Source: Escherichia coli (lineage in GTDB: Bacteria; Pseudomonadota; Gammaproteobacteria; Enterobacterales; Enterobacteriaceae). Taken from it: DNA of 64,000 nt. This document shows positions 43,935 to 64,000 of the stretch, piece by piece (the stretch's first letter is position 1; every line of letters begins with the position of its first letter). The DNA lies in NCBI RefSeq assembly GCF_003019035.1, contig NZ_CP027447.1; one strand, written 5' to 3'. The notes under the pieces are model-generated. The model ran no database searches, had not been told where the DNA came from, and saw only the letters and a list, made by a program, of their open reading frames with translations. The position numbers and the translations under genes were made by a program.

Positions 43935-44081
43935 GATTCGCCTGAACATGCCCTTTTTTCGTAAGTAAGCAACATAAGCTGTCACGTTTTGTGATGGCTA
44001 TTAGAAATTCCTATGCAACAACTGAAAAAAAATTACAAAAAATGCTTTCTGAACTGAACAAAAAAGAGTAAAGTTAGTCGC

Positions 44082-44190
44082 GTAGGGTACAGAGGTAAGA
44101 TGTTCTATCTTTCAGACCTTTTACTTCACGTAATCGGATTTGGCTGAATATTTTAGCCGCCCCAGTCAGTAATGACTGGGGCGTTTTTTA
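44082..44190 (+). ncRNA. spf: Spot 42 small RNA
   Basis: gtagggtacagaggtaagatgttctatctttcagacc...gccgccccagtcagtaatgactggggcgtttttta matches Spot 42 (109 nt) with its intrinsic terminator. Confidence 0.85.
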
Positions 44191-45218: not shown

Positions 45219-45462
45219 ATAGAGCGAGGACGCTAACAGGAACAATGACTCAGGATGAGGGTCAGGAGCGCCAGGAGGCGAAGACAGAGGATTGTCAGGA
45301 AGACAAACGTCCGGAGACGTAATTAAACGGAAATGGAATCAACACGGATTGTTCCGGCTAATGGAAAAACAGGGTGTGTTGGCGGCCTGCAAGGATTGTA
45401 AGACCCGTTAAGGGTTATGAGTCAGGAAAAAAGGCGACAGAGTAATCTGTCGCCTTTTTTCT
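45219..45462 (+). ncRNA. csrC: CsrC small RNA (CsrA-sequestering)
   Basis: Non-coding stretch with many GGA motifs (caggatgagg, caggaggcg, caggaag, ...) ending in a ggcgacagagtaatctgtcgcc hairpin plus T-run; position between engB and yihI matches csrC. Confidence 0.65.
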
Positions 45463-45529
45463 TTGCTTGCTTTCTGTTAGATTCCGCCGCAAATCTATAC
45501 TGAATAAAACGGCTAAAAGACGAACCATT

Positions 45530-47667: not shown

Positions 47668-48888
<1,221 letters not shown>

Positions 48889-48917
48889 CAACAGCGCCTG
48901 ACGGCGCTGTGTCTGGC

Positions 48918-48977
<60 letters not shown>

Positions 48978-49000
48978 AAACCTGTTGAAAATATTGCTTT

Positions 49001-49040
49001 TGCAGGCCGGATAAGGCGTTCACGCCGCATCCGGCATGAA
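49001..49040. repeat. REP element downstream of the IS
   Basis: gcaggccggataaggcgttcacgccgcatccggcatg. Confidence 0.5.
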
Positions 49041-49069
49041 CAAAGAGCACTTCATCAGCAATCTGAAAC

Positions 49070-49180
49070 TCAACTAAACAGCCCAATCATCGCGGCACAC
49101 AGCACGGCAGCAACGGCAGTTTGTGGTGTGTGGCTGTCAACTGCGCCACTCGATACCAGATTAATTATTGATTCCAGCAT
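49070..49180 (-). CDS. yshB: Small membrane protein YshB-like, 36 aa
   Basis: Manual translation: MLESIINLVSSGAVDSHTPQTAVAAVLCAAMIGLFS with RBS GGAGAG; below the ORF-track size cut-off; identity to YshB recalled from memory. Confidence 0.5.
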   Translation of the reverse strand: MLESIINLVSSGAVDSHTPQTAVAAVLCAAMIGLFS

Positions 49181-49291
49181 AATGACTCTCCCCGTTTTCC
49201 GGGCAAGATCATACTGAACTTATCGGAACAGTAAAGCGCAAAATACCAGCAATTTGCGCTCAATAATCAATCTTTACTCACAAGCCGTGAA

Positions 49292-50701
49292 TCACTCCAT
49301 CCCTAGCTCTTTTAACTTACGCGTCAGGGTGTTACGCCCCCAGCCAAGTAAGCGCGCAGCTTCCTGTTTATGCCCCTGCGTATGTCGCAACGCGGTCGTC
49401 AGTAACGTCCGCTCCAACTCTGGTTGCGCTTCAGACAGCAAGTTTTGATGACCGGAACGTAGCGCCCGATCTGCCCACTGTGCTAACAGCGTTGCCCAAC
49501 TGTCCGGCTGCATTTGTGAAGTGCTTTCCGGTACGGTTGATTCAAACAGTTCACCGGGCAAATCCTGAATCAACACTTCCTGCCCGGCGGCCATCACCGT
49601 TAGCCAGCGACAGGTGTTTTCCAGCTGACGCACGTTCCCCGGCCACGCCAGGCGCGTCAGCGCGGCTTCGGTTTCCGGATGCAGCAACTTCGCTTCTACG
49701 CCCAGTTCGCGCGCGGCAACCTGTAAAAAATGGCGTGCCAGACGGGGAATATCTTCCCGACGCTCACGCAATGGCGGCAGATGAACGCGGATAACGTTCA
49801 GGCGGTGGAACAGATCCTCGCGGAACTTGCCTTCCTGCACGCGCAGTTCCAGGTTCTGGTGAGTAGCAGCGATAATACGCACATCCACTTTCACCGGCGC
49901 ATAGCCGCCAACGCGGTAAAACTGACCGTCTGCCAGTACGCGCAGCAAACGGGTCTGCACATCCAGCGGCATATCGCCAATTTCATCGAGGAATAATGTG
50001 CCACCATCGGCCTGTTCAAAACGCCCCTGACGAATGGTATTCGCGCCGGTAAACGCGCCTTTCTCGTGACCAAACAGTTCTGATTCGATCAAATCCTTCG
50101 GAATAGCCGCCATATTCAGCGCGATAAATGGCGCTTTGGCTCGCGGACTGTGGCGATGCAGGGCATGAGCGACCAGTTCTTTACCGGTGCCGGATTCGCC
50201 GTTAATCAGCACGCTAATAGAAGAACGCGAAAGCCGACCGATAATACGGAACACGTCCTGCATGGCTGGCGCTTCGCCGATGATATCGGTCGTTGGGCCG
50301 TTAAGCTGAACATTACGCGGCTGCTGCTGTTCCTGATAATGGCTGATGGCGCGCTCAACCAGCGCCACGGCTTCGTCGATATCAAACGGTTTGGGCAGAT
50401 AATCAAACGCCCCTTGTTGATAGGCGCTGACGGCAGCATCCAGATCGGAATGTGCGGTCATAATGATGACCGGAAGCATCGGATGGCGCTGTTTAATCTG
50501 CTTGAGCAGCGCCAGCCCGTCCATTCCCGGCATACGGATATCTGAAAGCAGCACATCCGGCGTTTTGCTCGCCAGCGCCTCCAGTACTTCCGCGCCGTTC
50601 TCAAATGTCGTACAGGTTAAACCCGCTCCAGCGAGCGCACGTTCAAGCACCCAACGGATGGAACTATCGTCATCGACTACCCAGACTATCCCTCGTTGCA
50701 T
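49292..50701 (-). CDS. glnG: Nitrogen regulation response regulator NtrC (sigma-54 activator)
   Basis: Start at [23 protein letters not shown] (469 aa); AAA+ GESGTGKE and GAFTGA motifs; track ORF has an extension. Confidence 0.95.
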
Positions 50702-50712
50702 AAACGTCACCT

Positions 50713-51762
50713 TTATTTCCTGATAGGCAGGTAAACCGAGAACTCGGTATGACCTGGCCAACTGGTAAATTCAATTTTGCCTGAATGCTGATCAATCAAA
50801 TTACGGGCGATGGATAAGCCAAGCCCGGTGCCACCTTCGCGGCCGCTGACCATCGGGTAAAACAGCGTATCCTGCAAATGAGGCGGAATACCTGGCCCGT
50901 TATCTTCCACATCAATTCGCGCCGCCAGCCGATAACGCTCGCCGTGTAAGGTCAGTTGAAACGCGGTGCGGGTACGCAGAATGATTTCACCACCCTCCGG
51001 CCCCAGCGCCTGTAGCGCATTGCGCACAATATTCAGCAAGACCTGTTCAATTTGATCCGGGTCGTGCGCCAGTTCCGGCAGGCTGGGGTCGTAATCCCGA
51101 ATCAACCGCACGTTGCTCGGCAGTTCCATCGACACCAGCGTCACCACGCGTTCAGCCACTTTGTGAATACTTTCGGTAATACGCGTACCGGGCAGCTGCG
51201 GCCCCAACAGACGGTCGACCAGATTTCGCAGCCGGTCCGCCTGTTCGATAATCACTTTGGTATATTCGAGTAGTGACGGGTCAGGTAATGCTTTGCTGAG
51301 CAGCTGCGCCGCGCCACGTAAACCGCCAAGCGGATTTTTAATCTCATGTGCCAGGCCGCGCACTAAATCACGGGCAGCAACCTGCTGGGCGTGCTGTAGC
51401 TGTTCCTGACTTAAGCGGCGCTGGTTATCCATCGGTGCCATCTCCAGCAGGATCATGCCGTCCGGCATACGCTGAGCCGTCACAGAAAGGATATGCGAGC
51501 GCCCGTCGATGACCAGCGTCACTTCGTTATCGGTAAAGCCTTGCCCCGCCTCCAGACTTTCTTGCATCAGCTCGATATTTAATGAGAAGTAGCTCAACAG
51601 TTCCGGTAACGGCGTACCAAACAATTTGCGGGAGCTTTGGGCGAGCAGTTGTTGCGCGGCGGGGTTGGCGTAATGGATCGCCAGATTGTCATCAATTAAC
51701 AAAATACTGTTAATCAGCGAGTTGAGGATCTGCCCAGCATCGGGCTGCGTGCCTGTTGCCAT
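50713..51762 (-). CDS. glnL: Nitrogen regulation sensor histidine kinase NtrB
   Basis: 349 aa; H-box HEIKNPL; RBS AGGAGA. Confidence 0.95.
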
Positions 51763-51850
51763 AAAGCAGTCTCCTGAACAGGTTGCACCATTTTAGTGCA
51801 TTATAGCTTTTTACGGATAAAAAGCGCGAAGCATCAGAGAATTGACGGAG

Positions 51851-51875
51851 AAAAAAGCCCATGCAGAGATGGGCT
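51851..51875 (-). terminator. glnA rho-independent terminator
   Basis: On the minus strand: agcccatctctgcatgggct hairpin followed by TTTTTT. Confidence 0.6.
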
Positions 51876-51935
51876 GAAAGTTTCCACGGCAACTAAATCC
51901 CAGCGTTGTTGCGCCGGGTAGTACAACTTCAACTA
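51851..51935 (-). ncRNA. Candidate 3-prime-UTR-derived sRNA of glnA (GlnZ-like); position-based only
   Basis: About 60 nt of 3-prime UTR plus the intrinsic terminator downstream of the glnA stop; glnA 3-prime-UTR sRNAs are described in enterobacteria. Confidence 0.3.
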
Positions 51936-53345
51936 TTAGACGCTGTAGTACAGCTCAAACTCTACCGGATGCGGAGTCATACGCACACGGTCATCTTCTT
52001 CGCGACGCAGAGCGATGTACGCATCGATCGCTTCATCAGTGAACACGCCACCGGCTTTCAGGAACTCGCGGTCCAGATCCAGTTCGTTCAGTGCTTCTTC
52101 CAGAGAACCAGCAACCTGTGGGATCTCTTTCGCTTCTTCCGGCGGCAGGTCATACAGGTTTTTGTCCATGGCTTCGCCCGGATGGATCTTGTTCTTGATA
52201 CCGTCAAGACCGGCCATCAGCAGGGCAGCAAAACACAGGTACGGGTTAGCCGCCGGGTCCGGGAAACGTACTTCGATACGACGTGCTTTCGGAGAAGAAA
52301 CCACCGGAATACGGATAGACGCAGAACGGTTACGCGCAGAGTAAGCCAGCATTACCGGTGCTTCGTAGCCCGGGACCAGACGCTTGTAAGAGTTGGTGGT
52401 CGGGTTTGCCAGGGCATTAATCGCTTTCGCGTGTTTGATTACGCCGCCAATATAGTACAGCGCCTGCTCAGACAGACCTGCGTATTTGTCGCCAGCAAAC
52501 AGGTTAACGCCGTTTTTAGACAGCGACATGTGGCAGTGCATACCGGAACCGTTATCACCGAACATCGGTTTTGGCATAAAGGTCGCAGTTTTACCGAAGC
52601 GGTGCGCTACGTTGTGCACAACATATTTGTAGATCTGAATTTCGTCAGCTTTTTTGGTCATGGTATTGAAGCGGGTAGCCACTTCGTTCTGACCAGCAGT
52701 CGCTACTTCGTGGTGATGGGCTTCAACCACCAGACCCATCTGTTCCATCACCAGACACATTTCAGAACGAATATCCTGAGCCGAGTCTACCGGTGGAACC
52801 GGGAAGTAACCGCCTTTCACTGCCGGACGGTGACCTTTGTTACCACCTTCGTATTGGGTGGAGGAGTTCCATGCGCCTTCGATATCGTCGATAGCAACGT
52901 GGGAACCGGAGATAGATGATCCGAAACGGATGTCATCGAACAGGAAGAATTCAGGTTCTGGCCCGAACAGTACGGTGTCGGCAATGCCAGTGGAACGCAG
53001 GTAATCTTCGGCGCGCTTCGCAATGGAGCGCGGGTCACGGTCATAGCCTTGCAGGGTGCCAGGTTCAAGGATGTCGCAACGGATAATCAGGGTGGAGTCG
53101 GCGAAGAACGGGTCAATCACTGCGGTGGATGCGTCTGGCATCAGCACCATGTCGGATTCATTAATGCCTTTCCAGCCGCCAATCGAGGAGCCGTCAAACA
53201 TTTTGCCTTCTTCGAAGAATTCGGCATTCACCTGATGAGCAGGGATAGTGACGTGCTGTTCTTTACCTTTGGTATCGGTGAAGCGCAAATCAACAAACTT
53301 CACTTCGTGCTCGTTCAGCATCGTCAGTACGTGTTCAGCGGACAT
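51936..53345 (-). CDS. glnA: Glutamine synthetase GlnA
   Basis: 469 aa; [31 protein letters not shown]...; adenylylation-site region present. Confidence 0.97.
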
Positions 53346-53424
53346 ACTTTAACTCTCCTGGATTGGTCATGGTCGTCGTGGTAACGAAATCTGCAATTAT
53401 TTTGGCCGTGTCGCCGTAAAAAAG

Positions 53425-53446
53425 ATAAAGCGAAAACTGTGCCAAC
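53425..53446 (-). promoter_or_regulatory. Sigma-54 promoter glnAp2 (TGGCAC-N5-TCGCT)
   Basis: Minus-strand reading ttggcacagttttcgct, with correct -24/-12 spacing, upstream of glnA. Confidence 0.6.
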
Positions 53447-53489
53447 TTTTAAATTGCCCCTAAAAGGCGTTATCATGCTTAACATCGTG

Positions 53490-53570
53490 CAAAAGGGCTG
53501 CACCATGATGTGAATGTTGCACCAATATAGTGCTTCAATGGAAACATTAAGCACCATATTGGTGCAATGA
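53490..53570. promoter_or_regulatory. NtrC binding sites (enhancer) upstream of glnA
   Basis: Perfect palindrome gcaccatattggtgca (53551-53566) plus tgcacca-type half-sites at 53500-53530. Confidence 0.55.
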
Positions 53571-53717
53571 CCTTTGGATAACCCTTTTTATGCTCCGTGA
53601 AAGCGATCACAAAGGGACTCTGCAATACTTGTTTGCGGAGGATGTTTGTGATCCTGTTTTGTAGTGCGATTAATCCGTGTACAATAACGCGCTATTTCTA
53701 ATGCCTGAGGCAAAGTT

Positions 53718-55541
53718 GTGATCGAAAAATTGCGTAATATCGCCATCATCGCGCACGTAGACCATGGTAAAACCACCCTGGTAGACAAGCTGCTCCAACA
53801 ATCCGGTACGTTCGACTCTCGTGCCGAAACCCAAGAGCGCGTGATGGACTCCAACGATTTGGAGAAAGAGCGTGGGATTACCATCCTCGCGAAAAACACC
53901 GCTATCAAATGGAATGATTACCGTATCAACATCGTTGATACCCCGGGGCACGCCGACTTCGGTGGTGAAGTTGAACGTGTAATGTCCATGGTAGACTCAG
54001 TGCTGCTGGTGGTTGACGCATTTGACGGCCCGATGCCGCAAACGCGCTTCGTAACCAAAAAAGCGTTTGCTTACGGCCTGAAGCCGATTGTTGTTATCAA
54101 CAAAGTTGACCGCCCTGGCGCGCGTCCTGATTGGGTTGTGGATCAGGTATTCGATCTGTTCGTTAACCTCGACGCGACCGACGAGCAGCTGGACTTCCCG
54201 ATCGTTTACGCTTCTGCGCTGAATGGTATCGCGGGTCTGGACCACGAAGATATGGCGGAAGACATGACCCCGCTGTATCAGGCGATTGTTGACCACGTTC
54301 CTGCGCCGGACGTTGACCTTGACGGTCCGTTCCAGATGCAGATTTCTCAGCTCGATTACAACAGCTATGTTGGCGTTATCGGCATTGGCCGCATCAAGCG
54401 CGGTAAAGTGAAGCCGAACCAACAGGTTACTATCATCGATAGCGAAGGCAAAACCCGCAACGCGAAAGTCGGTAAAGTGCTGGGCCACCTCGGTCTGGAA
54501 CGTATCGAAACCGATCTGGCGGAAGCTGGCGATATCGTGGCGATCACGGGTCTTGGCGAACTGAACATTTCTGACACCGTTTGCGACACGCAAAACGTTG
54601 AAGCGCTGCCGGCACTCTCCGTTGATGAGCCGACCGTTTCTATGTTCTTCTGCGTTAACACCTCGCCGTTCTGCGGTAAAGAAGGTAAGTTCGTAACGTC
54701 TCGTCAGATCCTGGATCGTCTGAACAAAGAACTGGTACACAACGTTGCGCTGCGCGTAGAAGAAACCGAAGACGCCGATGCGTTCCGCGTTTCTGGTCGT
54801 GGCGAACTGCACCTGTCTGTTCTGATCGAAAACATGCGTCGTGAAGGTTTCGAACTGGCGGTATCCCGTCCGAAAGTTATCTTCCGTGAAATCGACGGTC
54901 GTAAACAAGAGCCGTATGAAAACGTGACTCTGGACGTTGAAGAACAGCATCAGGGTTCTGTGATGCAGGCACTGGGCGAACGTAAAGGCGACCTGAAGAA
55001 CATGAATCCAGACGGTAAAGGCCGCGTACGTCTCGACTACGTGATCCCAAGCCGTGGTCTGATTGGCTTCCGTTCTGAGTTCATGACCATGACCTCTGGT
55101 ACGGGTCTGTTGTACTCCACCTTCAGCCACTATGACGACGTACGTCCGGGTGAAGTGGGTCAGCGTCAGAACGGCGTACTGATCTCTAACGGTCAGGGTA
55201 AAGCGGTAGCGTTCGCGCTGTTCGGTCTGCAGGACCGTGGTAAGCTGTTCCTCGGTCACGGTGCAGAAGTTTACGAAGGTCAGATTATCGGTATTCATAG
55301 CCGCTCTAACGACCTGACTGTAAACTGCCTGACCGGTAAGAAACTGACCAACATGCGTGCTTCCGGTACTGACGAAGCCGTTGTTCTGGTTCCACCTATC
55401 CGCATGACTCTGGAACAAGCTCTGGAGTTCATCGATGATGACGAACTGGTAGAAGTGACTCCGACCTCTATCCGTATTCGTAAACGTCACCTGACGGAAA
55501 ACGATCGTCGTCGCGCCAACCGCGCACCGAAAGACGATTAA
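53718..55541 (+). CDS. typA: Ribosome-associated translational GTPase TypA/BipA
   Basis: 607 aa, GTG start; G-domain AHVDHGKTT and DTPGH motifs. Confidence 0.95.
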
Positions 55542-55562
55542 TTTCGTTTTTTAGTTATAAAA

Positions 55563-55591
55563 AACCTGCCATCGCTGGCAGGTTTTTTTTT
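55563..55591 (+). terminator. typA rho-independent terminator
   Basis: aacctgccatcgctggcaggtt hairpin followed by a 9-T run. Confidence 0.8.
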
Positions 55592-55757
55592 ACCTGTCGT
55601 GAGCGCACACCAATGCGAGTATCTCCCTTATAAGTCTGTGATTACGTCAATAGAGAGCTTTGTCACAATTATCTGCAAAGTCATACACCGTTAATTGCTT
55701 TCTTTTTTGGCGTAAGCGTAAGATGCTTCATCTGGTTTAAACCAAAAGGATTAAACA

Positions 55758-56468
55758 ATGGCGGAGAATCAATCCACCGTAGAAAATGCAAAAGAGAAAC
55801 TGGATCGGTGGTTGAAAGATGGCATCACCACGCCGGGTGGAAAACTCCCTTCAGAAAGAGAGCTGGGAGAACTGCTGGGCATTAAACGTATGACGCTGCG
55901 CCAGGCGTTGTTGAACCTCGAGGCAGAATCCAAAATCTTCCGTAAGGATCGTAAAGGGTGGTTCGTGACCCAGCCGCGATTTAATTACAGTCCAGAGCTG
56001 TCGGCGAGCTTTCAGCGGGCTGCAATTGAGCAAGGGCGGGAACCTTCCTGGGGGTTTACCGAGAAAAGCCGTACCAGAGATATTCCCGAGACGCTCGTGC
56101 CACTGATTACAGTGACACCATCCACTGAACTCTATCGCATCACCGGCTGGGGAGCGCTGGAAGGACATAAAGTTTTCTATCACGAAACATATATTAATCC
56201 TGAAGTTGCCCCGGGTTTTATTGAACAACTTGAAAACCACTCATTTTCTGCAGTCTGGGAAAAGTGCTACCAAAAAGAGACGGTAGTAAAAAAATTGATT
56301 TTCAAACCCGTCAGAATGCCGGGCGATATCAGCAAGTATCTTGGCGGTTCTGCGGGTATGCCAGCGATCTTAATTGAAAAGCATCGCGCCGACCAGCAGG
56401 GCAATATTGTCCAGATAGATATTGAATATTGGCGATTTGAGGCCGTAGACCTCATCATTAATCTGTAG
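55758..56468 (+). CDS. yihL: GntR/UTRA-family transcriptional regulator YihL
   Basis: 236 aa; HTH region LPSERELGELLGIKRMTLRQAL. Confidence 0.8.
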   Translation: MAENQSTVENAKEKLDRWLKDGITTPGGKLPSERELGELLGIKRMTLRQALLNLEAESKIFRKDRKGWFVTQPRFNYSPELSASFQRAAIEQGREPSWGFTEKSRTRDIPETLVPLITVTPSTELYRITGWGALEGHKVFYHETYINPEVAPGFIEQLENHSFSAVWEKCYQKETVVKKLIFKPVRMPGDISKYLGGSAGMPAILIEKHRADQQGNIVQIDIEYWRFEAVDLIINL

Positions 56469-56475
56469 GTGTTTT

Positions 56476-57456
56476 ATGGTGACAATAAATAACGCAAGAA
56501 AGATTCTACAACGTGTCGACACTCTTCCTCTTTATTTACATGCTTATGCCTTTCATTTAAATATGCGACTGGAAAGAGTGTTGCCTGCTGATTTACTTGA
56601 TATCGCAAGTGAAAATAATCTACGTGGCGTCAAAATCCATGTTCTGGATGGAGAGCGTTTTTCTCTTGGTAATATGGACGATAAAGAACTCTCTGCCTTT
56701 GGGGATAAAGCCCGCCGTCTGAACCTTGATATTCATATTGAAACCAGCGCCTCAGATAAAAAATCTATTGACGAAGCCGTCGCCATCGCGTTGAAAACTG
56801 GGGCATCCTCCGTACGTTTTTATCCGCGTTATGAAGGTAATTTGCGCGATGTATTATCGATTATCGCTAACGACATTGCCTATGTACGAGAAACGTATCA
56901 GGACAGCGGCCTGACTTTTACGATCGAACAGCATGAAGATTTAAAAAGCCATGAGCTGGTGTCGCTGGTCAAAGAAAGTGAGATGGAATCTCTTTCCTTA
57001 CTGTTTGATTTTGCGAACATGATCAATGCAAATGAGCATCCCATCGACGCTTTAAAAACGATGGCACCGCATATTACCCAGGTCCATATCAAAGATGCCT
57101 TGATCGTTAAAGAAGAGGGTGGCCTGGGTCATAAAGCCTGTATTTCAGGTCAGGGTGATATGCCGTTCAAAGCGTTATTAACGCACCTTATCTGCCTGGG
57201 TGATGATGAGCCGCAGGTGACGGCATATGGCCTGGAAGAAGAGGTTGATTACTATGCGCCGGCGTTCCGCTTTGAAGACGAAGATGATAATCCGTGGATC
57301 CCTTATCGCCAGATGAGTGAAACACCATTGCCAGAAAATCATTTACTGGATGCGCGGTTACGTAAAGAAAAAGAAGATGCAATTAATCAGATAAATCATG
57401 TGCGTAACGTACTACAACAAATCAAACAAGAGGCAAACCATCTTCTGAACCACTAA
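56476..57456 (+). CDS. yihM: Sugar phosphate isomerase/epimerase-like (xylose isomerase-like TIM barrel) YihM
   Basis: 326 aa; gene order yihL-yihM-yihN as in E. coli. Confidence 0.8.
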   Translation: MVTINNARKILQRVDTLPLYLHAYAFHLNMRLERVLPADLLDIASENNLRGVKIHVLDGERFSLGNMDDKELSAFGDKARRLNLDIHIETSASDKKSIDEAVAIALKTGASSVRFYPRYEGNLRDVLSIIANDIAYVRETYQDSGLTFTIEQHEDLKSHELVSLVKESEMESLSLLFDFANMINANEHPIDALKTMAPHITQVHIKDALIVKEEGGLGHKACISGQGDMPFKALLTHLICLGDDEPQVTAYGLEEEVDYYAPAFRFEDEDDNPWIPYRQMSETPLPENHLLDARLRKEKEDAINQINHVRNVLQQIKQEANHLLNH

Positions 57457-57557
57457 TAAGTTTTAACTCATACGCTGTTAATAAAACCATTCCATATGAA
57501 TGGTCGGTATCTTATTGCCTTTAAAACAGTGATTTTAAAAATCGCTTAGGGGATGTT

Positions 57558-58823
57558 ATGCTCACGAAAAAGAAATGGGCGTTATTTAGTCTATTAACAC
57601 TGTGTGGCGGTACAATTTATAAATTACCGTCGCTGAAAGATGCGTTTTATATCCCGATGCAGGAATATTTCCATTTGACCAATGGTCAAATTGGTAATGC
57701 TATGTCGGTAAACTCATTTGTCACGACAGTGGGCTTTTTTCTGTCTATTTATTTTGCCGATAAACTACCGCGCAGATACACCATGTCATTCTCACTCATT
57801 GCGACAGGATTACTGGGTGTTTATTTGACGACAATGCCGGGGTATTGGGGCATCCTCTTTGTCTGGGCGCTATTTGGCGTTACTTGCGACATGATGAACT
57901 GGCCGGTCTTGCTCAAGTCGGTAAGTCGATTGGGCAATAGCGAACAACAAGGTCGGTTGTTTGGCTTCTTCGAAACAGGGCGTGGCATTGTCGATACCGT
58001 GGTGGCATTTTCTGCGTTGGCAGTATTTACCTGGTTTGGCAGTGGCTTATTGGGTTTTAAAGCAGGCATCTGGTTCTATTCCCTTATTGTGATTGCCGTA
58101 GGCATTATCATTTTCTTTGTTCTGAATGACAAAGAAGAGGCACCGTCCGTTGAGGTGAAAAAAGAAGACGGAGCATCGAAAAACACCAGTATGACCTCGG
58201 TGCTGAAAGACAAAACTATCTGGCTTATCGCTTTCAACGTCTTCTTCGTTTACGCGGTTTACTGTGGCCTGACATTCTTCATTCCATTCTTGAAAAACAT
58301 CTATCTATTGCCTGTTGCGCTGGTGGGGGCTTACGGCATCATTAACCAATACTGTCTGAAAATGATTGGTGGACCGATTGGTGGCATGATTTCAGATAAG
58401 ATCCTGAAATCGCCGAGTAAATATCTATGCTACACCTTTATCATCAGTACCGCTGCGCTCGTACTGTTGATTATGCTGCCGCACGAAAGTATGCCGGTCT
58501 ATTTAGGGATGGCATGTACGCTGGGCTTTGGCGCGATAGTCTTTACACAGCGAGCCGTATTTTTTGCACCTATCGGCGAAGCAAAAATTGCTGAAAATAA
58601 AACAGGCGCGGCGATGGCGTTGGGTAGCTTTATTGGTTACGCCCCGGCGATGTTCTGCTTCAGTCTGTATGGCTACATTCTGGATTTAAATCCGGGGATT
58701 ATTGGCTACAAAATCGTGTTTGGCATTATGGCCTGCTTCGCATTCTGTGGTGCGGTGGTTTCCGTAATGCTGGTTAAGCGTATTAGCCAACGTAAGAAAG
58801 AGATGCTGGCGGCTGAAGCTTAA
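57558..58823 (+). CDS. yihN: MFS transporter YihN
   Basis: 421 aa; about 12 predicted TM segments. Confidence 0.85.
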   Translation: MLTKKKWALFSLLTLCGGTIYKLPSLKDAFYIPMQEYFHLTNGQIGNAMSVNSFVTTVGFFLSIYFADKLPRRYTMSFSLIATGLLGVYLTTMPGYWGILFVWALFGVTCDMMNWPVLLKSVSRLGNSEQQGRLFGFFETGRGIVDTVVAFSALAVFTWFGSGLLGFKAGIWFYSLIVIAVGIIIFFVLNDKEEAPSVEVKKEDGASKNTSMTSVLKDKTIWLIAFNVFFVYAVYCGLTFFIPFLKNIYLLPVALVGAYGIINQYCLKMIGGPIGGMISDKILKSPSKYLCYTFIISTAALVLLIMLPHESMPVYLGMACTLGFGAIVFTQRAVFFAPIGEAKIAENKTGAAMALGSFIGYAPAMFCFSLYGYILDLNPGIIGYKIVFGIMACFAFCGAVVSVMLVKRISQRKKEMLAAEA

Positions 58824-58827
58824 TTAA

Positions 58828-58907
58828 TGGCCGGATGTGGCTTAATCCGGCCAACGAAAACCGTATCAACCGTAGGCCGGATAAGGCGTTTTCGCCGCAT
58901 CCGGCAG
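58828..58907. repeat. REP elements between yihN and ompL
   Basis: ggccggatgtggcttaatccggcc and gtaggccggataaggcgttttcgccgcatccggca. Confidence 0.5.
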
Positions 58908-58914
58908 TTTTACA

Positions 58915-59607
58915 TCAGAAGAAATACTTCGTCCCGATACGAATCTGGTTTTGCTCGCGGTGGTACGGCTCTACGTTGCGATCTAACCAGCGCAATTCAA
59001 TATAGGGCAACCAGTGCTCATTAATGCGATAACGGAAGGTGTTAGTGATTTCCCAGTGATGCTTCGTACCATTGCTGCTATTGAAATCATTAATGTTATA
59101 AAAATAATGCGGTTCAAAGGTATATGAGAACTTATCGGTAATAATAAAGTTCCAGTAGTTGCCAATCTCGTAGCTGTCATTATTATCCAGATCACCGTTC
59201 AAATCGGTTGAGCTATAGTTATTATGGTTAAAACGATTACGTACCGTCAGGTTAAACCATGGAGTAAATTTGTAGTTAACATCCAGATAAACAGCACCAC
59301 CCGAACCGATACTCTTATCATTAATTAAGCCACCGGGCTGGATGGTTAATTTATCGGTTGGTTTGAATAACGGATACCAACCTTCGATTTCGTTATATCC
59401 ATGTTTGAGTTCATCTTCTCGCTGAAAGGTGTAGGTATTGGTTAACATAATACCCGCGCCCATATCGAAGTTATAACCCACACGTAGCATAACCTCGCCC
59501 TGATCGGAGGCGAGATTATATGCCTCCCTGTTTTCGACGTATGCGCCAGCAAATACCGAGGCAGAGGTCAGAGAGGATAATAGAATTATTGCATTAATCT
59601 TTTTCAT
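58915..59607 (-). CDS. ompL: Outer membrane porin OmpL
   Basis: Start at MKKINAIILLSSLTSASVFA (signal peptide; 230 aa); C-terminal aromatic residue (..TKYFF) typical of beta-barrels. Confidence 0.8.
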   Translation of the reverse strand: MKKINAIILLSSLTSASVFAGAYVENREAYNLASDQGEVMLRVGYNFDMGAGIMLTNTYTFQREDELKHGYNEIEGWYPLFKPTDKLTIQPGGLINDKSIGSGGAVYLDVNYKFTPWFNLTVRNRFNHNNYSSTDLNGDLDNNDSYEIGNYWNFIITDKFSYTFEPHYFYNINDFNSSNGTKHHWEITNTFRYRINEHWLPYIELRWLDRNVEPYHREQNQIRIGTKYFF

Positions 59608-59673
59608 AATAAGTCCATTTTTAAGCGTAGGGAGGCCGCCACCCACCAGGATGGAAATAGCGGCTATTGACAT

Positions 59674-61077
59674 TTATAACGTTACGGAAGCCGTTTTTTC
59701 TTCTGTCGCCATCTCTTTATTTTTGCGTTGGTTAATTTCCTCAATAATCAGTGCAAACCGTTTTTCATTGAGTGTGTAAAAGAATCCCATCGTCAATGCA
59801 GCAATAATTGCCAGTGCACAAGGCCAGATAAAAATGAGCTGACGCAAACCCTGTAATGTCGCATCACTTTGCGCGATGTTGGGAACATAACCTATTTGCG
59901 TCAGCATAATGCCTGGCAAGAAGCCAGCAAGTGCGGCAGAAATTTTACGAAAGAAGGTATAACCGGTATAAACAGAACCTTCGGCACGAATACCGGTTTT
60001 CCATTCACCGTAATCTACGGTATCTGGCACCAGTGCCCAGTTCAGGCTGTTTACAAAGGCCGTGCCAAAAAAGGCGACACAAGAGAACATGACGAAAGTG
60101 AAAGAGTTATTTCCCCAGAAATAATTCAGGATATCACCAACCGCCCACAGCACCATGCCAGCTAAATAAACCTGTTTTTTACCAAAATATTTTACAGTTA
60201 ATGGCACCAGTAATACGCCGACGAGGATGCATCCCATACTGAAGAATCCCATCCACGACAATAAATTAATATCATTTAGCACATACTGGGTGTAATAGAC
60301 CTGAATCGCCAGTTTGATATTAAATGCCGCCAGAGTACACAGGTTAGCAATGCACAATACCAGCAAAGGTGGATTATGAAATATCGCGCAAAATGATTTG
60401 AGAATACTGGCCTTATGTCCGGTTGGCGTGGTGTCCACATAATGCTCTTTGACGCCTCTGTAGCACAGCATCATAAAAATAAAGCCGCCAATGGAGAACA
60501 TCAGTGCCGCACAGGCATAACCGACGGTTGAGTCAGAAAAAAGCGACTGCAACGGAATAAACGCCACGGTACAAATCAATAGCCCTATGGTTGCACCACC
60601 CTGGCGGTAAGCCGCGAGCTGCGCGCGCTCATTGGGGTTTTTGGTAATGGCCGGGATCATCGCACCATACGAGCAGTTCATCAGACTGTATGAAAGTCCA
60701 AACATCATAAACAGTGCGGTGGCAATCGTCGTTTTAACCGGCAAACTAAAGGTGGTGGCGATAAACTGGAGCGTTGCAATTAACGCCGCCGGAACCGCTG
60801 CATATAAAATAAAGGGACGAAATTTGCCTTTAGGCCCAATATTTTTCCGCGAGTCGAGTAAAAATCCGGTGAGCATATCGGTAAATGCGGTAAAAAACTT
60901 CGCCACCAGAAAGATAATCCCGCCATAGTAAGCAGGCATCCCTAATTCATCGGTATAAAATTTGAGGAGATACAGAGTACCGATGCAGAGCATTAAATTC
61001 GAACCGACGTCGCCCATACCATAGGCGATTTTTTCCCGCAGATTCAGTCTTAATGTCAGTGGATTATGGTCAGACAT
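59674..61077 (-). CDS. yihO: GPH-family sugar:cation symporter YihO (putative sulfoquinovose importer)
   Basis: Start at MSDHNPLTLRLNL with RBS AAGGAG (467 aa); paralog of the adjacent yihP. Confidence 0.85.
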   Translation of the reverse strand: MSDHNPLTLRLNLREKIAYGMGDVGSNLMLCIGTLYLLKFYTDELGMPAYYGGIIFLVAKFFTAFTDMLTGFLLDSRKNIGPKGKFRPFILYAAVPAALIATLQFIATTFSLPVKTTIATALFMMFGLSYSLMNCSYGAMIPAITKNPNERAQLAAYRQGGATIGLLICTVAFIPLQSLFSDSTVGYACAALMFSIGGFIFMMLCYRGVKEHYVDTTPTGHKASILKSFCAIFHNPPLLVLCIANLCTLAAFNIKLAIQVYYTQYVLNDINLLSWMGFFSMGCILVGVLLVPLTVKYFGKKQVYLAGMVLWAVGDILNYFWGNNSFTFVMFSCVAFFGTAFVNSLNWALVPDTVDYGEWKTGIRAEGSVYTGYTFFRKISAALAGFLPGIMLTQIGYVPNIAQSDATLQGLRQLIFIWPCALAIIAALTMGFFYTLNEKRFALIIEEINQRKNKEMATEEKTASVTL

Positions 61078-61119
61078 AATCACTCCTTATAACGCCCCGC
61101 AGGGCGTTGTTTATTATAA

Positions 61120-62505
61120 TTACGCCGTGCGTTTACGGGCTTCTATCTCTTCAACAATGCGGACGTACATCTTCTCGTTCAGACTGTAGAAGCAACCCAT
61201 TGCCACGATGGTGACTACTGCCAGTGCGCTTGGGTAGATGAAGATCAGTTGGCGCAACCCTTCGATAGTGTGGTCAGCCTGGGCGACGTTTGGCACATAG
61301 CCGATTTGCGTCAGCATCCAGCCTGGGAAGAAACCTGCCAGCGCCTGAGATACTTTGCGAAAGAAGGTGAAACCGGTGTAGACCGTACCTTCCGAACGCA
61401 CACCGGTGCGCCACTCGCCGTACTCGACGGTGTCGGAAACCAGCGCCCAGTTCAGGCTGTTAACAAACGCCGAACCAAAGAACGCCAGGCAGGAGAAAGC
61501 CACAAAGCTGACCGAGCCGCTGCCGAAGAAATAGTTGAGCAGATCGCCCAGCACCCAGATCAGCAGGCCGCCGATATAGACCTTCTTCTTACCAAAACGT
61601 CTGACCGCACCAGGCATCAGGAACACACCGATGAAAATACAGCCCATGCTGAAAAATCCCATATATGACAACAGGATGGGATCGTTAAGCACGTACTGGG
61701 TGTAATAGACCTGAATGGCGAGCTTGACGTTAAATGCCCCTAAAGTGCAGAGGTTGGCAATGCACAGAATGAACAGCGGGCGGTTACCGGCAATCGCACG
61801 GAAAGATTGCAACAAGCCAGGCTTTTGCGCCGGATTGGTAGGTTGGGTTTCGACATAACGCTCTTTCACGCCCGAGTAGCAGATCCACATAAACAGCAGG
61901 CCGAACAGTGAAAACAGCGTGGCGGCGAAGATATAGCCAAGTTGCTGATTACCTTCGATAAGATTCATAACCGGCACGAATCCCACCGTACACAGCAGCA
62001 GGCCTAATGTAGCGCCACCCTGACGCCATGCTGCCAGCGATGCACGTTCGTTGGGGTTTTTAGTAATAGCGGGGACCATCGCGCCATACGAGCAGTTCAT
62101 CATGCTGAAAAACAGTCCGTAAAGCATAAACAGGATGGTGGCCATCACCGTTTTACCGGTGACATCGAACGGCGTACCGATAAAGTTGGCGATCGCCAGC
62201 AGGGTGACCGGGAATGACGCATACAGAATAAAAGGACGGAACTTGCCTTTTGGGCCGATCTTGCGTCGGGAATCCAGCATGATGCCTGTTCCCATATCGG
62301 TAAACGCAGTAAAGAATTTTGAAATCAAAAAGATAATGCCGCCATAGGTGCCAGGCAGCCCCAGAACGTCGGTATAAAACTTCAACAGATAAAGCGTACC
62401 AATATCCAGCAGGATGTTAGAGGCCAGGTCGCCAATACCGTAAGAGAGTTTCTCTTTAAAGGGCAGGCGTAAAGTTGCTGGATCTTCCGTTGTGATGTGA
62501 CTCAT
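61120..62505 (-). CDS. yihP: GPH-family sugar:cation symporter YihP
   Basis: Start at MSHITTEDPATLRL with RBS GGGAGAA (461 aa); the track ORF has an 11-aa extension. Confidence 0.85.
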   Translation of the reverse strand: MSHITTEDPATLRLPFKEKLSYGIGDLASNILLDIGTLYLLKFYTDVLGLPGTYGGIIFLISKFFTAFTDMGTGIMLDSRRKIGPKGKFRPFILYASFPVTLLAIANFIGTPFDVTGKTVMATILFMLYGLFFSMMNCSYGAMVPAITKNPNERASLAAWRQGGATLGLLLCTVGFVPVMNLIEGNQQLGYIFAATLFSLFGLLFMWICYSGVKERYVETQPTNPAQKPGLLQSFRAIAGNRPLFILCIANLCTLGAFNVKLAIQVYYTQYVLNDPILLSYMGFFSMGCIFIGVFLMPGAVRRFGKKKVYIGGLLIWVLGDLLNYFFGSGSVSFVAFSCLAFFGSAFVNSLNWALVSDTVEYGEWRTGVRSEGTVYTGFTFFRKVSQALAGFFPGWMLTQIGYVPNVAQADHTIEGLRQLIFIYPSALAVVTIVAMGCFYSLNEKMYVRIVEEIEARKRTA

Positions 62506-62550
62506 CGTTGTTCTCCCTTTGCCCGTGAGTTTCCCCACGGGCGGATGTGA

Positions 62551-64000
62551 TTAGATGCTTTTTAACGACGCGAACAGTGCCGCCCATTCGCTATCGGCGC
62601 GATAAAAGACCGGCGGTTTACCGATGGGCGCATTAACGGTAACTTCCCCGCCCCGGAACGCTTCACCCGTCCAGGCATGGACCCAGTTATCCTCCGGCAG
62701 ATAGAGCGTCCAGTCGCTACGGCCTTCTTCATGCACCGGAGCGACCAGAATGTCGCGGCCTAACAGGTACTGATATTTCAGGGTGTAGGTCTGCGCGTCG
62801 TCTTCGTAATGCAGGAACAGCGGGCGCATAACCGGCAGGCCGGACTTCGCATTCAGCGCGACGGCCTCTTTCAGGTAAGGTTTCAGGGTGGTGAAGACGG
62901 TGGTCATACGGGCAAAATGGGCGATAGTTTCCGCGTCGCTATCAAACTGCCAGTTGTCGCCAGGACGGTTACCTTCGTGGGTGCGCATCATCGGCGTGAA
63001 GGCGCTGAAATCGCACCAGCGCAGCAGCAGCTCTTTGCTGCGCTTCATCTCAAACAGGGTGGTATAACCGCCAATGTCACTGTGATGCAGGCCATGTCCG
63101 GTCATTGCCAGCGACAGCGCCGCCGGAACAACCGACGCCAGGCCATCGTCCAGACTCCAGTCCACGTTCTGGTCGCCCGCCCACATCATGGTGGAATATT
63201 TCTGGCTACCAGTAGAACCGGCGCGCATAAAGAAGAGGAGCTCGCCGAGCTTGCCTGTTTCTTCAAGGGCTTCGTAGTTACACTTCGCCCACAGTGCGGG
63301 CCAGGCGTTATGCATTATTTCGGCACTGACGCCGTTGTGCAGATACGTATCGGTCGGCAAGTATTCGCCAAAATCTGCCATCCAGCCGCCGCAGCCCAAT
63401 TCGATCATGTTTTTCTTGATGACTTCTTTGAACCAGGAATAGGCTTCAGGATTGGTCAAATCGACAACGCCGCCATAAAACTCACCAAACTCCACCAGAT
63501 AGTCACCGCCAGAGGCATCTTTTGCCAGATAGCCGTGTGAAGCCGCCTCGGCGCAGAGGTCCTTATCGCTGGCAACATACGGGTTGATGTAGGCGAGGAA
63601 CTGCACGCCTTCTTTGTTCCACTGTTTAATACGCGAATCCAGTTGCGGATAGTTTTCGCTGTTCCACTTCCAGTTCCACATCACACGTTTACCAAACGAG
63701 GTCATACGGATCCCGGACCAGTCCTGCGCCCAGATGCCGTTGACCTTCACGCCTGCGTTACGCATGGTGTCCAGTTTCTTCTGGCACACTTCAGTCCCGC
63801 CCTGAATGCCGAGCGTTACCCCGTCATAAATCCAGTCGGGCAGTTCTGGCTGGCGTCCCAGCAGGGCAGTTAATTTTTCCAGCAGGGAGATGTATGTATC
63901 AGCACATTCAAAACGCAGCGTTGCTTTGTCTTCCCACAGCGCCAGTTCATGGTATTCCGGGGCGCTAAAGTCGAAGTTCATGTAGCAACTGTTATCAACA
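62551..64000 (-). CDS. yihQ: Sulfoquinovosidase YihQ (glycoside hydrolase family 31), partial; N-terminus lies beyond the window end
   Basis: The track ORF (476 aa) is the C-terminal part; the reading frame continues open to position 64000; GH31-like region (WxDF/GEY motifs). Confidence 0.85.
   Translation of the reverse strand, partial: VDNSCYMNFDFSAPEYHELALWEDKATLRFECADTYISLLEKLTALLGRQPELPDWIYDGVTLGIQGGTEVCQKKLDTMRNAGVKVNGIWAQDWSGIRMTSFGKRVMWNWKWNSENYPQLDSRIKQWNKEGVQFLAYINPYVASDKDLCAEAASHGYLAKDASGGDYLVEFGEFYGGVVDLTNPEAYSWFKEVIKKNMIELGCGGWMADFGEYLPTDTYLHNGVSAEIMHNAWPALWAKCNYEALEETGKLGELLFFMRAGSTGSQKYSTMMWAGDQNVDWSLDDGLASVVPAALSLAMTGHGLHHSDIGGYTTLFEMKRSKELLLRWCDFSAFTPMMRTHEGNRPGDNWQFDSDAETIAHFARMTTVFTTLKPYLKEAVALNAKSGLPVMRPLFLHYEDDAQTYTLKYQYLLGRDILVAPVHEEGRSDWTLYLPEDNWVHAWTGEAFRGGEVTVNAPIGKPPVFYRADSEWAALFASLKSI

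What the first reader, a model, noticed from the sequence alone, without database searches (positions are those of the whole stretch)
59674..64000. Left end of the sulfoquinovose utilisation locus (yihO, yihP, yihQ), with ompL and yihLMN alongside
yihO and yihP are tandem paralogous GPH-family symporters followed by the GH31 sulfoquinovosidase gene yihQ, which runs off the window. This matches the known E. coli sulfoglycolysis cluster, so it is established biology rather than novel. The roles of the adjacent ompL porin and the yihL (GntR) - yihM (isomerase-like) - yihN (MFS) unit are less well defined.
Basis: established knowledge. Interest (0 to 1): 0.2.

Follow-up and report, generated by a model that had tools for sequence, protein, structure and literature searches.

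The report
Known E. coli sulfoquinovose uptake genes
This stretch holds the already well-described E. coli genes that take up the plant sulfo-sugar sulfoquinovose and cut it from its glycosides, so the finding is correct but ordinary.

Summary
On the minus strand lie yihQ (62551 to beyond 64000; residues 197-678 of 678 are in the window), yihP (61120-62505), yihO (59674-61077) and ompL (58915-59607). The sequence is 100% identical to E. coli SCU-301. [quoted passage not shown]

- **Family checks:** YihO and YihP are 65% identical GPH symporters. YihQ is the GH31 sulfoquinovosidase and keeps every catalytic and sulfonate-binding residue. All genes are intact and under purifying selection.
- **First correction:** ompL belongs to the published 10-gene cluster and is induced by sulfoquinovose, so the cluster's left end is 58915, not 59674.
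- **Second correction:** yihLMN is an unrelated neighbour. It occurs without the long cluster, and the cluster occurs without it in 69 of 72 species loci.

Small extras, none changing the verdict:
- Two GC-rich stem-loops between the genes are conserved across Enterobacterales.
- yihP and yihO occasionally recombine into a single hybrid gene.
- This strain's yihP allele is rare.
- The transport roles of YihP, and partly YihO, remain assigned by hypothesis only.

Verdict: already known, low interest.

The parts
62551..64000 (-). yihQ, the GH31 sulfoquinovosidase. Only the 3' part is in the window (codons 197-678 of 678); the gene starts at what would be position 64587.
   Evidence: Translation is open to the window edge. 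PDB 5aed residues 197-678 match at E=0. NF007746 scores 1238 bits on the full protein from L001. Key residues are conserved.
62521..62542 (-). Stem-loop between yihQ and yihP: GCCCGUGGG-GAAA-CUCACGGGC. It ends a few bases before the yihP ribosome-binding site and has no U-tract.
   Evidence: dG -19.6 kcal/mol, z -4.8. A hairpin of dG <= -8 is present in 57 of 59 species spacers. 8 of 9 pairs show double changes and 98% of cells are paired.
61120..62505 (-). yihP, a GPH-family symporter (461 aa). It is annotated as a putative DHPS exporter, but its substrate has not been shown.
   Evidence: TIGR00792 538 bits and Pfam MFS_2. 98.9% amino-acid identity to K-12 YihP. Annotation.
61091..61108 (-). 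Stem-loop between yihP and yihO: AACGCCC-UGCG-GGGCGUU. It lies just upstream of the yihO ribosome-binding site and has no U-tract.
   Evidence: dG -13 kcal/mol, z -2.5. The 14-nt core is invariant in five genera. 56 of 66 species spacers fold at <= -8. One pair covaries A-U/G-C, and loops are mostly UNCG type.
59674..61077 (-). yihO, a GPH-family symporter (467 aa) and the proposed sulfoquinovose importer.
   Evidence: TIGR00792 527 bits. Aligns to MelB 4m64 over residues 11-439. 98.7% identical to K-12 YihO. A yihO deletion in K-12 fails to grow on SQ (PMC6278857).
58915..59607 (-). ompL, a KdgM-family outer-membrane porin (230 aa). It is the last gene of the transcription unit and the true left end of the cluster.
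   Evidence: PF06178 288 bits and NF007434 473 bits. A signal-peptide-like N-terminus, MKKINAIILLSSLTSASVFA, can be read. Induced on SQ in K-12.
58824..58914 (.). Convergent spacer between ompL and yihN, holding two REP-like palindromes that probably end both transcription units.
   Evidence: Sequence. dG -40.4 kcal/mol, z -5.1. A 35-nt piece recurs elsewhere in E. coli genomes (hit H34; median two places per genome).
55758..58823 (+). yihL (GntR/UTRA regulator), yihM (xylose-isomerase-like TIM barrel) and yihN (MFS_1 transporter). An adjacent, separate unit that is not part of the sulfoquinovose cluster.
   Evidence: Pfam and NCBIfam results. Dissociated from the cluster in both directions.

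Best explanation
This is the uptake-and-deglycosylation end of the E. coli sulfoglycolysis (sulfo-EMP) cluster, in its 'long cassette' form. The genes yihQ, yihP, yihO and ompL are co-directional with spacers of 45, 42 and 66 nt. They are most likely read as one message, which ends in the REP palindromes before yihN.

Proposed working, marked shown or inferred:
- Sulfoquinovose (SQ) and its glycerol glycoside cross the outer membrane through the KdgM-type porin OmpL (inferred from family and SQ induction).
- They cross the inner membrane through the GPH symporters. YihO is needed for growth on SQ in K-12 (shown genetically in the literature). The role of YihP is hypothesis only.
- The cytoplasmic GH31 enzyme YihQ cleaves alpha-sulfoquinovosides (shown biochemically and structurally for the 98%-identical K-12 enzyme).
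- The enzymes YihR, YihS, YihV, YihT and YihU, encoded just beyond the window, turn SQ into DHAP and DHPS, which is exported.
- Expression is switched on by SQ through release of the repressor CsqR (shown in the literature for K-12).

The two conserved stem-loops between the genes probably grade the amount of message: more for the enzyme, less for the transporters and porin (inferred).
For: - **Identity and context:** 100% identity to SCU-301, with the complete yihR-csqR continuation.
- **Family HMMs:** all well above curated cut-offs.
- **YihQ:** matches solved E. coli YihQ structures and keeps the catalytic and sulfonate-binding residues. Its N-terminus has no signal peptide.
- **Integrity:** every gene is intact, with dN/dS below 0.11 against K-12.
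- **Conservation:** gene order yihQ-yihP-yihO holds in nearly all of 72 species loci.
- **Induction in K-12 on SQ:** read counts rise from 0-3 to 676/699 (yihQ), 204/212 (yihP), 149/169 (yihO) and 25/13 (ompL).
- **Genetics:** a yihO deletion does not grow on SQ.
- **Predicted binding pocket:** both transporters have Asn where MelB has the acidic sugar-binding residues D19 and D124, and Arg where MelB has V376. This fits an anionic substrate.
- **Stem-loops:**
Against: - Nothing argues against the identification.
- No transport assay exists for YihO, YihP or OmpL.
- The window's own genome differs from SCU-301 by an IS621 insertion. The rightward continuation is therefore inferred from a near-identical strain rather than read from the window.
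- This strain's yihP, yihQ and ompL alleles are unusually divergent, and the strain has not been tested on sulfoquinovose.
- Co-transcription and the role of the stem-loops are inferred. The read counts used are low and come from another strain.
Confidence: 0.92

Rival explanations
1. A sub-rival on one step: YihP is not the DHPS exporter of the textbook scheme. It is a second importer, for example for sulfoquinovosyl glycerol, feeding the cytoplasmic YihQ. DHPS would then leave by another route.
For: - YihP is 65% identical to YihO.
- It shares every predicted pocket residue mapped from MelB except three: Y130/F133, Y373/F379 and A381/Q387.
- GPH proteins are cation-coupled importers by family.
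- YihQ is cytoplasmic, so its glycoside substrates must be imported.
- Natural strains and species carry one YihP::YihO hybrid in place of the pair.
- The exporter role is stated only as 'most likely' or 'not experimentally characterized'.
Against: - The pair is kept as two genes in most of the 72 species loci, so the roles differ in some way.
- A yihO deletion alone abolishes growth on SQ, so YihP does not import free SQ well. This fits either reading.
- No DHPS exporter alternative was identified here.
- The pocket mapping rests on a roughly 25%-identity alignment.
Confidence: 0.3
2. The locus serves O-antigen capsule assembly and export, as proposed for the Salmonella yihUTSRQPO and yihVW operons, rather than sugar catabolism.
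For: The Salmonella literature assigns the operons to O-antigen capsule biosynthesis (PMC7922415).
Against: The same paper reports that a 100-fold rise in operon expression gave no more capsule. The enzymology and structures of YihQ and the downstream enzymes fit sulfoquinovose. The genes are induced by sulfoquinovose.
Confidence: 0.04
3. The cluster has a second role in lactose or galactose breakdown independent of the lac operon.
For: PMC5816610 reports induction of yihS, yihT and yihV on lactose and galactose.
Against: The same paper found yihQ barely dependent on those sugars, found yihR independent of them, and did not study yihO, yihP or ompL. So the claim does not touch the genes in this window.
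Confidence: 0.08
4. The unusually divergent alleles in this strain mean the locus is decaying and is no longer functional.
For: Synonymous divergence from K-12 is 3 to 10 times that of the flanks: ompL 0.50, yihP 0.27 and yihQ 0.25 against 0.04-0.08. No other complete E. coli genome has a yihP more than 96.3% identical.
Against: All reading frames are intact and the same length as in K-12. dN/dS is 0.02-0.08 in these genes, and the functional residues are kept. This is the pattern of an old, selected allele brought in by recombination, not of decay.
Confidence: 0.03

Closest known systems
E. coli K-12 sulfo-EMP (sulfoglycolysis) cluster ompL-yihOPQRSTUVW (Denger et al. 2014; the 'long yih cassette' of PMC12608037)
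   Same: Same genes, order, strands and spacing, at the same chromosomal site between typA/yihLMN and yihX. Proteins are 94-100% identical.
   Different: Only allelic. Nucleotide identity falls to 90-95% in ompL, yihP, yihQ, yihS and yihV while the flanks are 98-99%. The yihP allele is unique among 3891 complete genomes.
Solved sulfoquinovosidases: E. coli YihQ (5aed, 5aee, 5aeg, 5oht) and the Agrobacterium enzyme (5ohs, 5ohy)
   Same: GH31 fold family. Catalytic D405 and D472 and the sulfonate-binding R301, W304 and Y508 are kept, as is the Q262/Q288 pair of the E. coli type.
   Different: 12 amino-acid differences from K-12 YihQ, none at the listed positions.
MelB, the melibiose permease of Salmonella (4m64, 7l16) and structural model of the GPH family
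   Same: Alignable over about 430 residues at E 1e-39. The Asp equivalent to MelB D59 and the Lys equivalent to K377 are kept.
   Different: MelB D55 and N58 (Na+ site) are Thr. The sugar-binding D19 and D124 are Asn, and V376 is Arg, in both YihO and YihP. This suggests proton rather than sodium coupling and an anionic substrate (inference).
The 'short yih cassette' of E. coli Nissle 1917 and many B2 strains (PMC12608037)
   Same: Occupies the same chromosomal site next to yihLMN. Encodes a DeoR regulator, kinase, reductase and aldolase that are 67-72% identical to CsqR, YihV, YihU and YihT.
   Different: It lacks ompL, yihO, yihP, yihQ and yihS. It carries a Zn-dependent alcohol dehydrogenase, two Sugar_tr-type MFS transporters and an epimerase instead. 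It is not present in this window.

Membership tests
Sulfo-EMP (sulfoglycolysis) gene cluster | A GH31 sulfoquinovosidase with the sulfonate-binding Arg/Trp/Tyr triad | tested here: met
   R301, W304 and Y508 plus D405 and D472 are present. NF007746 scores 1238 bits. 5aed is the top hit.
Sulfo-EMP (sulfoglycolysis) gene cluster | Adjacent SQ isomerase (YihS), SF kinase (YihV), SFP aldolase (YihT), SLA reductase (YihU) and DeoR regulator (CsqR) | tested here: met
   All are present directly to the right in SCU-301, which is 100% identical to window 48973-64000. They lie outside the window itself.
Sulfo-EMP (sulfoglycolysis) gene cluster | Induction by, and growth on, sulfoquinovose with DHPS excretion | not testable with these tools
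   Shown for K-12 in the literature, not for this strain.
GPH (glycoside-pentoside-hexuronide:cation symporter) family, TC 2.A.2 | Full-length match to the family model above the curated cut-off | tested here: met
   TIGR00792 scores 526.6 (YihO) and 537.6 (YihP) against a cut-off of 231. Pfam MFS_2 covers 426-427 of 427 positions.
GPH (glycoside-pentoside-hexuronide:cation symporter) family, TC 2.A.2 | Demonstrated cation-coupled transport of a defined substrate | not testable with these tools
   No transport assay has been published.
MelB-type Na+-coupled subgroup of GPH | Na+-site residues equivalent to MelB D55, N58 and D59 | tested here: not met
   YihO has T63, T66 and D67; YihP has T66, T69 and D70. 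Only the D59 equivalent is kept. So neither is filed as a MelB-type sodium symporter.
KdgM family of outer-membrane porins | Full-length match to PF06178 or the OmpL equivalog, plus an N-terminal signal sequence | tested here: met
   PF06178 288.5 bits over 222 of 222 positions. NF007434 473 bits against a cut-off of 288. The N-terminus MKKINAIILLSSLTSASVFA|GAY can be read.
yihLMN as part of the sulfoquinovose cluster | Co-occurrence with the cluster across genomes | tested here: not met
   yihLMN sits next to the short cassette in SCU-101. It is next to ompL in only 3 of 72 species loci, and typA directly follows ompL or yihO in at least 27.
Intrinsic (Rho-independent) terminator, for the two stem-loops between genes | A GC-rich stem followed by a U-tract | tested here: not met
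   The stems are followed by AAAGGGAGAA and AUAAGGAGUG, with no U run. The scan flagged the yihP-yihO palindrome only on the opposite strand.
REP / BIME elements (ompL-yihN spacer) | The imperfect palindrome GCCGGATG...CATCCGGC, repeated at many genomic sites | tested here: inconclusive
   The sequence fits the consensus as I recall it and folds at -40 kcal/mol. A piece recurs elsewhere in E. coli genomes. No formal REP model was run.

The most novel reading that the evidence does not exclude
The transport half of this textbook pathway may be mis-assigned and more finely regulated than assumed. In this reading, YihP is a second importer for sulfoquinovose glycosides rather than the DHPS exporter. 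The two stem-loops conserved across Enterobacterales, capped by GNRA- and UNCG-type loops just before the yihP and yihO ribosome-binding sites, would set a graded enzyme > transporter > porin output from one message. Natural YihP::YihO hybrid genes would then be ready-made tests of which half of the protein decides the substrate.
Probability: 0.25. Interest if true: 0.35.

Novelty: already known. Interest (0 to 1): 0.12.

Why it matters
[quoted passage not shown] The cluster itself has been known since 2014, so finding it again adds nothing. What remains open is modest: which transporter carries what, and how the amounts of the four proteins are balanced. The comparative data gathered here give concrete handles for those questions. 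They are the conserved stem-loops, the ten positions that separate YihO from YihP, and the natural hybrid genes.

Tried and rejected
- **Loss of function from divergent alleles.** Rejected: frames are intact and dN/dS is 0.02-0.11.
- **Escherichia whittamii as donor of the rare alleles.** Rejected: only 90-95% nucleotide identity, no closer than K-12 except for ompL.
- **yihLMN as part of the cluster.** Rejected by two-way dissociation. Its own function stayed unresolved. YihL is nearest to the phosphonate regulator PhnR but below cut-off (183 against 297 bits). YihM has only weak matches to uncharacterised TIM barrels.
- **Long ORFs antisense to yihQ (62809-63540, 243 aa) and to yihP/yihO.** The yihQ one was checked and rejected as an artefact; the shorter ones were not examined individually. 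The yihQ ORF lies in the codon-aligned antisense frame, where stops arise only from sense TTA, CTA or TCA. Only 4 of the 483 codons in the window are of that kind, and their positions differ in K-12.
- **Rfam families.** None in 55600-64000.
- **Promoter scan.** No excess over shuffles (16 against 13.1 expected) and nothing convincing on the minus strand before ompL.
- **Stem-loops as terminators.** Rejected: no U-tracts.
- **yihO-ompL spacer hairpin.** Not better than shuffles (z -0.5).
- **Crude hydropathy count of membrane helices.** Gave overlapping segments and was not used.
- **Technical note.** Loci fetched in one turn are stored together in one file under the first locus's name. That caused three failed scripts and one that skipped its analysis.
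Full report
**What is there.** The ORF list shows three long minus-strand ORFs at 59674-61083, 61120-62538 and 62551-63981. Window 59000-64000 is 100% identical to the chromosome of E. coli SCU-301. That record annotates ompL, yihO, yihP and yihQ there. Translated into window coordinates, ompL is 58915-59607, yihO 59674-61077, yihP 61120-62505 and yihQ 62551-64587. The yihQ frame stays open to the window edge, so the window holds codons 197-678 of 678. The identity with SCU-301 runs from 48973 to 64000. Further left, the window carries 1277 extra bases that SCU-301 lacks.

**Family checks.**
- YihO and YihP match the GPH symporter model TIGR00792 at 527 and 538 bits (cut-off 231), and Pfam MFS_2 end to end. 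They are 65% identical to each other, so 'tandem paralogues' is correct.
- YihQ, taken whole from SCU-301, matches the NCBIfam equivalog NF007746 at 1238 bits and the three GH31 domains of Pfam.
- The part of YihQ inside the window aligns to residues 197-678 of the solved E. coli YihQ structures 5aed, 5aee, 5aeg and 5oht at E=0.
- The nucleophile D405, the acid/base D472, the sulfonate-binding R301, W304 and Y508, and the Q262/Q288 pair are all present.
- The YihQ N-terminus has no signal sequence, so the enzyme acts in the cytoplasm.
- OmpL matches the KdgM porin family and the OmpL equivalog and begins with a typical export signal.

In SCU-301, yihQ is followed by yihR, yihS, yihT and yihU, then by yihV and csqR, then by yihX. 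This is the same layout as in K-12 MG1655. YihQ is inside GH31. One caveat: the rightward sequence is read from a near-identical genome, not from the window itself.

**State of the genes.** Against a K-12-type sequence, every gene from yihL to fabY has the same or nearly the same length. dN/dS is below 0.11 everywhere. The locus is intact and under purifying selection.

- *ompL.* It is counted as part of the 10-gene cluster in the literature. In K-12 it rises from 0 reads on glucose to 25 and 13 on sulfoquinovose, log2FC 7.29. The left end of the cluster is therefore 58915.
- *yihLMN is a separate unit.* It sits unchanged next to the alternative 'short' cassette in SCU-101.
- In Enterobacter ludwigii, Rahnella and most other genera, the cluster abuts typA or unrelated genes with no yihLMN.
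- Among 72 species loci with yihQ, yihLMN follows ompL in 3: Escherichia whittamii and two Citrobacter. typA follows directly in at least 27.
- yihL, yihM and yihN are absent from the differential-expression table that could be read.

**How it most likely works.**
- The four genes are co-directional, with spacers of 45, 42 and 66 nt. No spacer contains a stem followed by a U-tract.
- The unit ends in a 91-nt spacer with two REP-like palindromes before the convergent yihN.
- Salmonella workers treat yihUTSRQPO as one operon driven from the yihU promoter and repressed by YihW. For E. coli, a separate yihQ promoter has been predicted. Either way, the promoter lies outside the window.
- The accepted scheme is: sulfoquinovose and its glycosides enter, YihQ frees the sugar, and YihS, YihV, YihT and YihU yield DHAP and DHPS.
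- The enzymology is shown in the literature. For transport, the only data found are that a yihO deletion cannot grow on sulfoquinovose. YihP's exporter role is 'most likely' and 'not experimentally characterized'.

**What the sequences add on the transporters.**
- Aligned to MelB, both proteins keep the equivalents of D59 and K377.
- Both have Thr at the Na+-site positions D55 and N58, Asn at the sugar-binding acids D19 and D124, and Arg at V376. This fits proton coupling and an anionic substrate, but it is an inference from a distant alignment.
- Among 89 YihO-type and 25 YihP-type proteins, only ten positions separate the two groups cleanly.
- Three of the ten lie at or near MelB sugar-site positions: Y130/F133, Y373/F379 and A381/Q387.
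- The pair is conserved in order behind yihQ in most of the 72 loci, which argues for distinct roles.

**Hybrid transporter genes.**
- Seventeen database proteins are YihP at the N-terminus (to about residue 140) and YihO thereafter. Two show the reverse arrangement.
- One such E. coli genome carries a single hybrid gene between yihQ and ompL. That is the product expected from unequal crossing-over between the tandem copies.
- In complete E. coli genomes this is rare: at most 19 of 3900 cover less than 80% of the query.

**Stem-loops between the genes.**
- The yihQ-yihP spacer folds into a 9-bp stem with a GAAA loop (62542-62521; dG -19.6 kcal/mol, z -4.8).
- The yihP-yihO spacer folds into a 7-bp stem with a UGCG loop (61108-61091; dG -13 kcal/mol, z -2.5).
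- Each ends a few bases before the next ribosome-binding site.
- Both are conserved in five genera, with compensatory changes.
- Across the species loci, 57 of 59 and 56 of 66 spacers fold at -8 kcal/mol or better. This includes genera where the sequence is unrelated.
- On 20 distinct hairpins, 98% of cells pair and 8 of 9 pairs show double changes, with 0 of 500 shuffles as high. The caveat is that these rows were chosen by their predicted fold.
- In K-12 on sulfoquinovose, read density falls from about 0.34 reads per nt (yihQ) to 0.15 (yihP), 0.11 (yihO) and 0.03 (ompL). These figures are computed from the counts.
- Together this fits hairpins that protect the upstream message or partly stop transcription. 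That reading is inference from low counts in another strain.

**Population picture.**
- The flanking glnA-typA segment is about 98.5% identical in 5425 of 5426 complete genomes.
- The yihOPQ segment is found in 3900 genomes, mostly at 90-95% identity.
- Against K-12, synonymous divergence is 0.04-0.08 in the flanks and in yihO. It is 0.50 in ompL and 0.19-0.27 in yihP, yihQ, yihS, yihT and yihV. This is a recombination mosaic.
- No other complete genome has a yihP more than 96.3% identical. ompL falls into several identity classes.
- E. whittamii is not the source of the rare alleles.
- A further 1343 genomes carry the alternative cassette instead. This is in line with the long and short forms described in 2025.

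**Comparison and verdict.** This is the known E. coli sulfo-EMP long cassette, allelic variant only. The rivals are listed with their weights in the Rival explanations section: capsule assembly, a lactose side role, decay of the locus, and YihP as a second importer. None of them alters the identification. Novelty is 'already known' and interest is low.

Noticed in passing
window 47696-48972: A 1277-bp insertion relative to the otherwise identical SCU-301 chromosome, between hemN and yshB. It carries a 326-aa IS110-family recombinase (Pfam DEDD_Tnp_IS110 + Transposase_20). It matches elements annotated 'IS110-like element IS621 family transposase' in other E. coli genomes, with up to 29 matching places per genome (some partial).
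   Followed up: partly
window 62521-62542 and 61091-61108 (minus strand): Two GC-rich stem-loops, with GAAA and UGCG loops, lie between yihQ/yihP and yihP/yihO. They are conserved across Enterobacterales with compensatory changes and have no U-tracts. No mention of them was found in the yih-cassette paper checked.
   Followed up: yes
L005 7001-8413 (GCA_025155915.1); proteins P0004-P0017, P0087, P0088, P0101, P0105, P0128: Natural YihP(N-terminus)::YihO(C-terminus) hybrid transporters, with a single hybrid gene between yihQ and ompL. They occur in some E. coli, E. albertii, S. bongori and others. Two proteins show the reciprocal form.
   Followed up: partly
window 58915-64000: Mosaic divergence from K-12: dS is 0.50 in ompL and 0.25-0.27 in yihP and yihQ, but 0.08 in yihO and the flanks. 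This yihP allele is at most 96.3% identical to that of any other complete E. coli genome.
   Followed up: partly
L004 17184-25742 (E. coli SCU-101; same site in Nissle 1917): The published 'short yih cassette (yihTUVW)' is really an eight-gene cluster. It also encodes a Zn-dependent alcohol dehydrogenase, two Sugar_tr-type MFS transporters and an aldose epimerase. Its four yih-like proteins are only 67-72% identical to the long-cassette ones. It is present in 1343 of 5426 genomes.
   Followed up: partly
L054, L062-L067, L069, L070, L073, L079 (Hafnia, Yersinia, Serratia, Chimaeribacter): These loci have csqR, yihV, yihU, yihQ and two transporter genes (ompL only in some), but give no YihS or YihT match. 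This hints at a variant pathway core.
   Followed up: no
window 55758-56468 (yihL): YihL's best curated-family match is the phosphonate-utilisation regulator PhnR (183 bits, below the 297 cut-off). YihM has no close solved relative. The substrate of the yihLMN unit stays unknown.
   Followed up: partly
window 44072-44190, 45219-45472, 53529-53636, 55526-55594: Rfam matches above gathering score: Spot 42, CsrC, ES222 (upstream of typA) and STnc370 (just after typA).
   Followed up: no
window about 51763-51935 (glnL-glnA spacer): This spacer is 173 nt here but 285 nt in K-12, where the 194-nt sRNA GlnZ is annotated. This strain may therefore carry a shorter GlnZ form (coordinates).
   Followed up: no
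window 62809-63540 (plus strand): A 243-aa ORF lies antisense to yihQ in the codon-aligned frame. It is explained by the rarity of TTA, CTA and TCA codons in yihQ, and it is not conserved in extent in K-12.
   Followed up: yes
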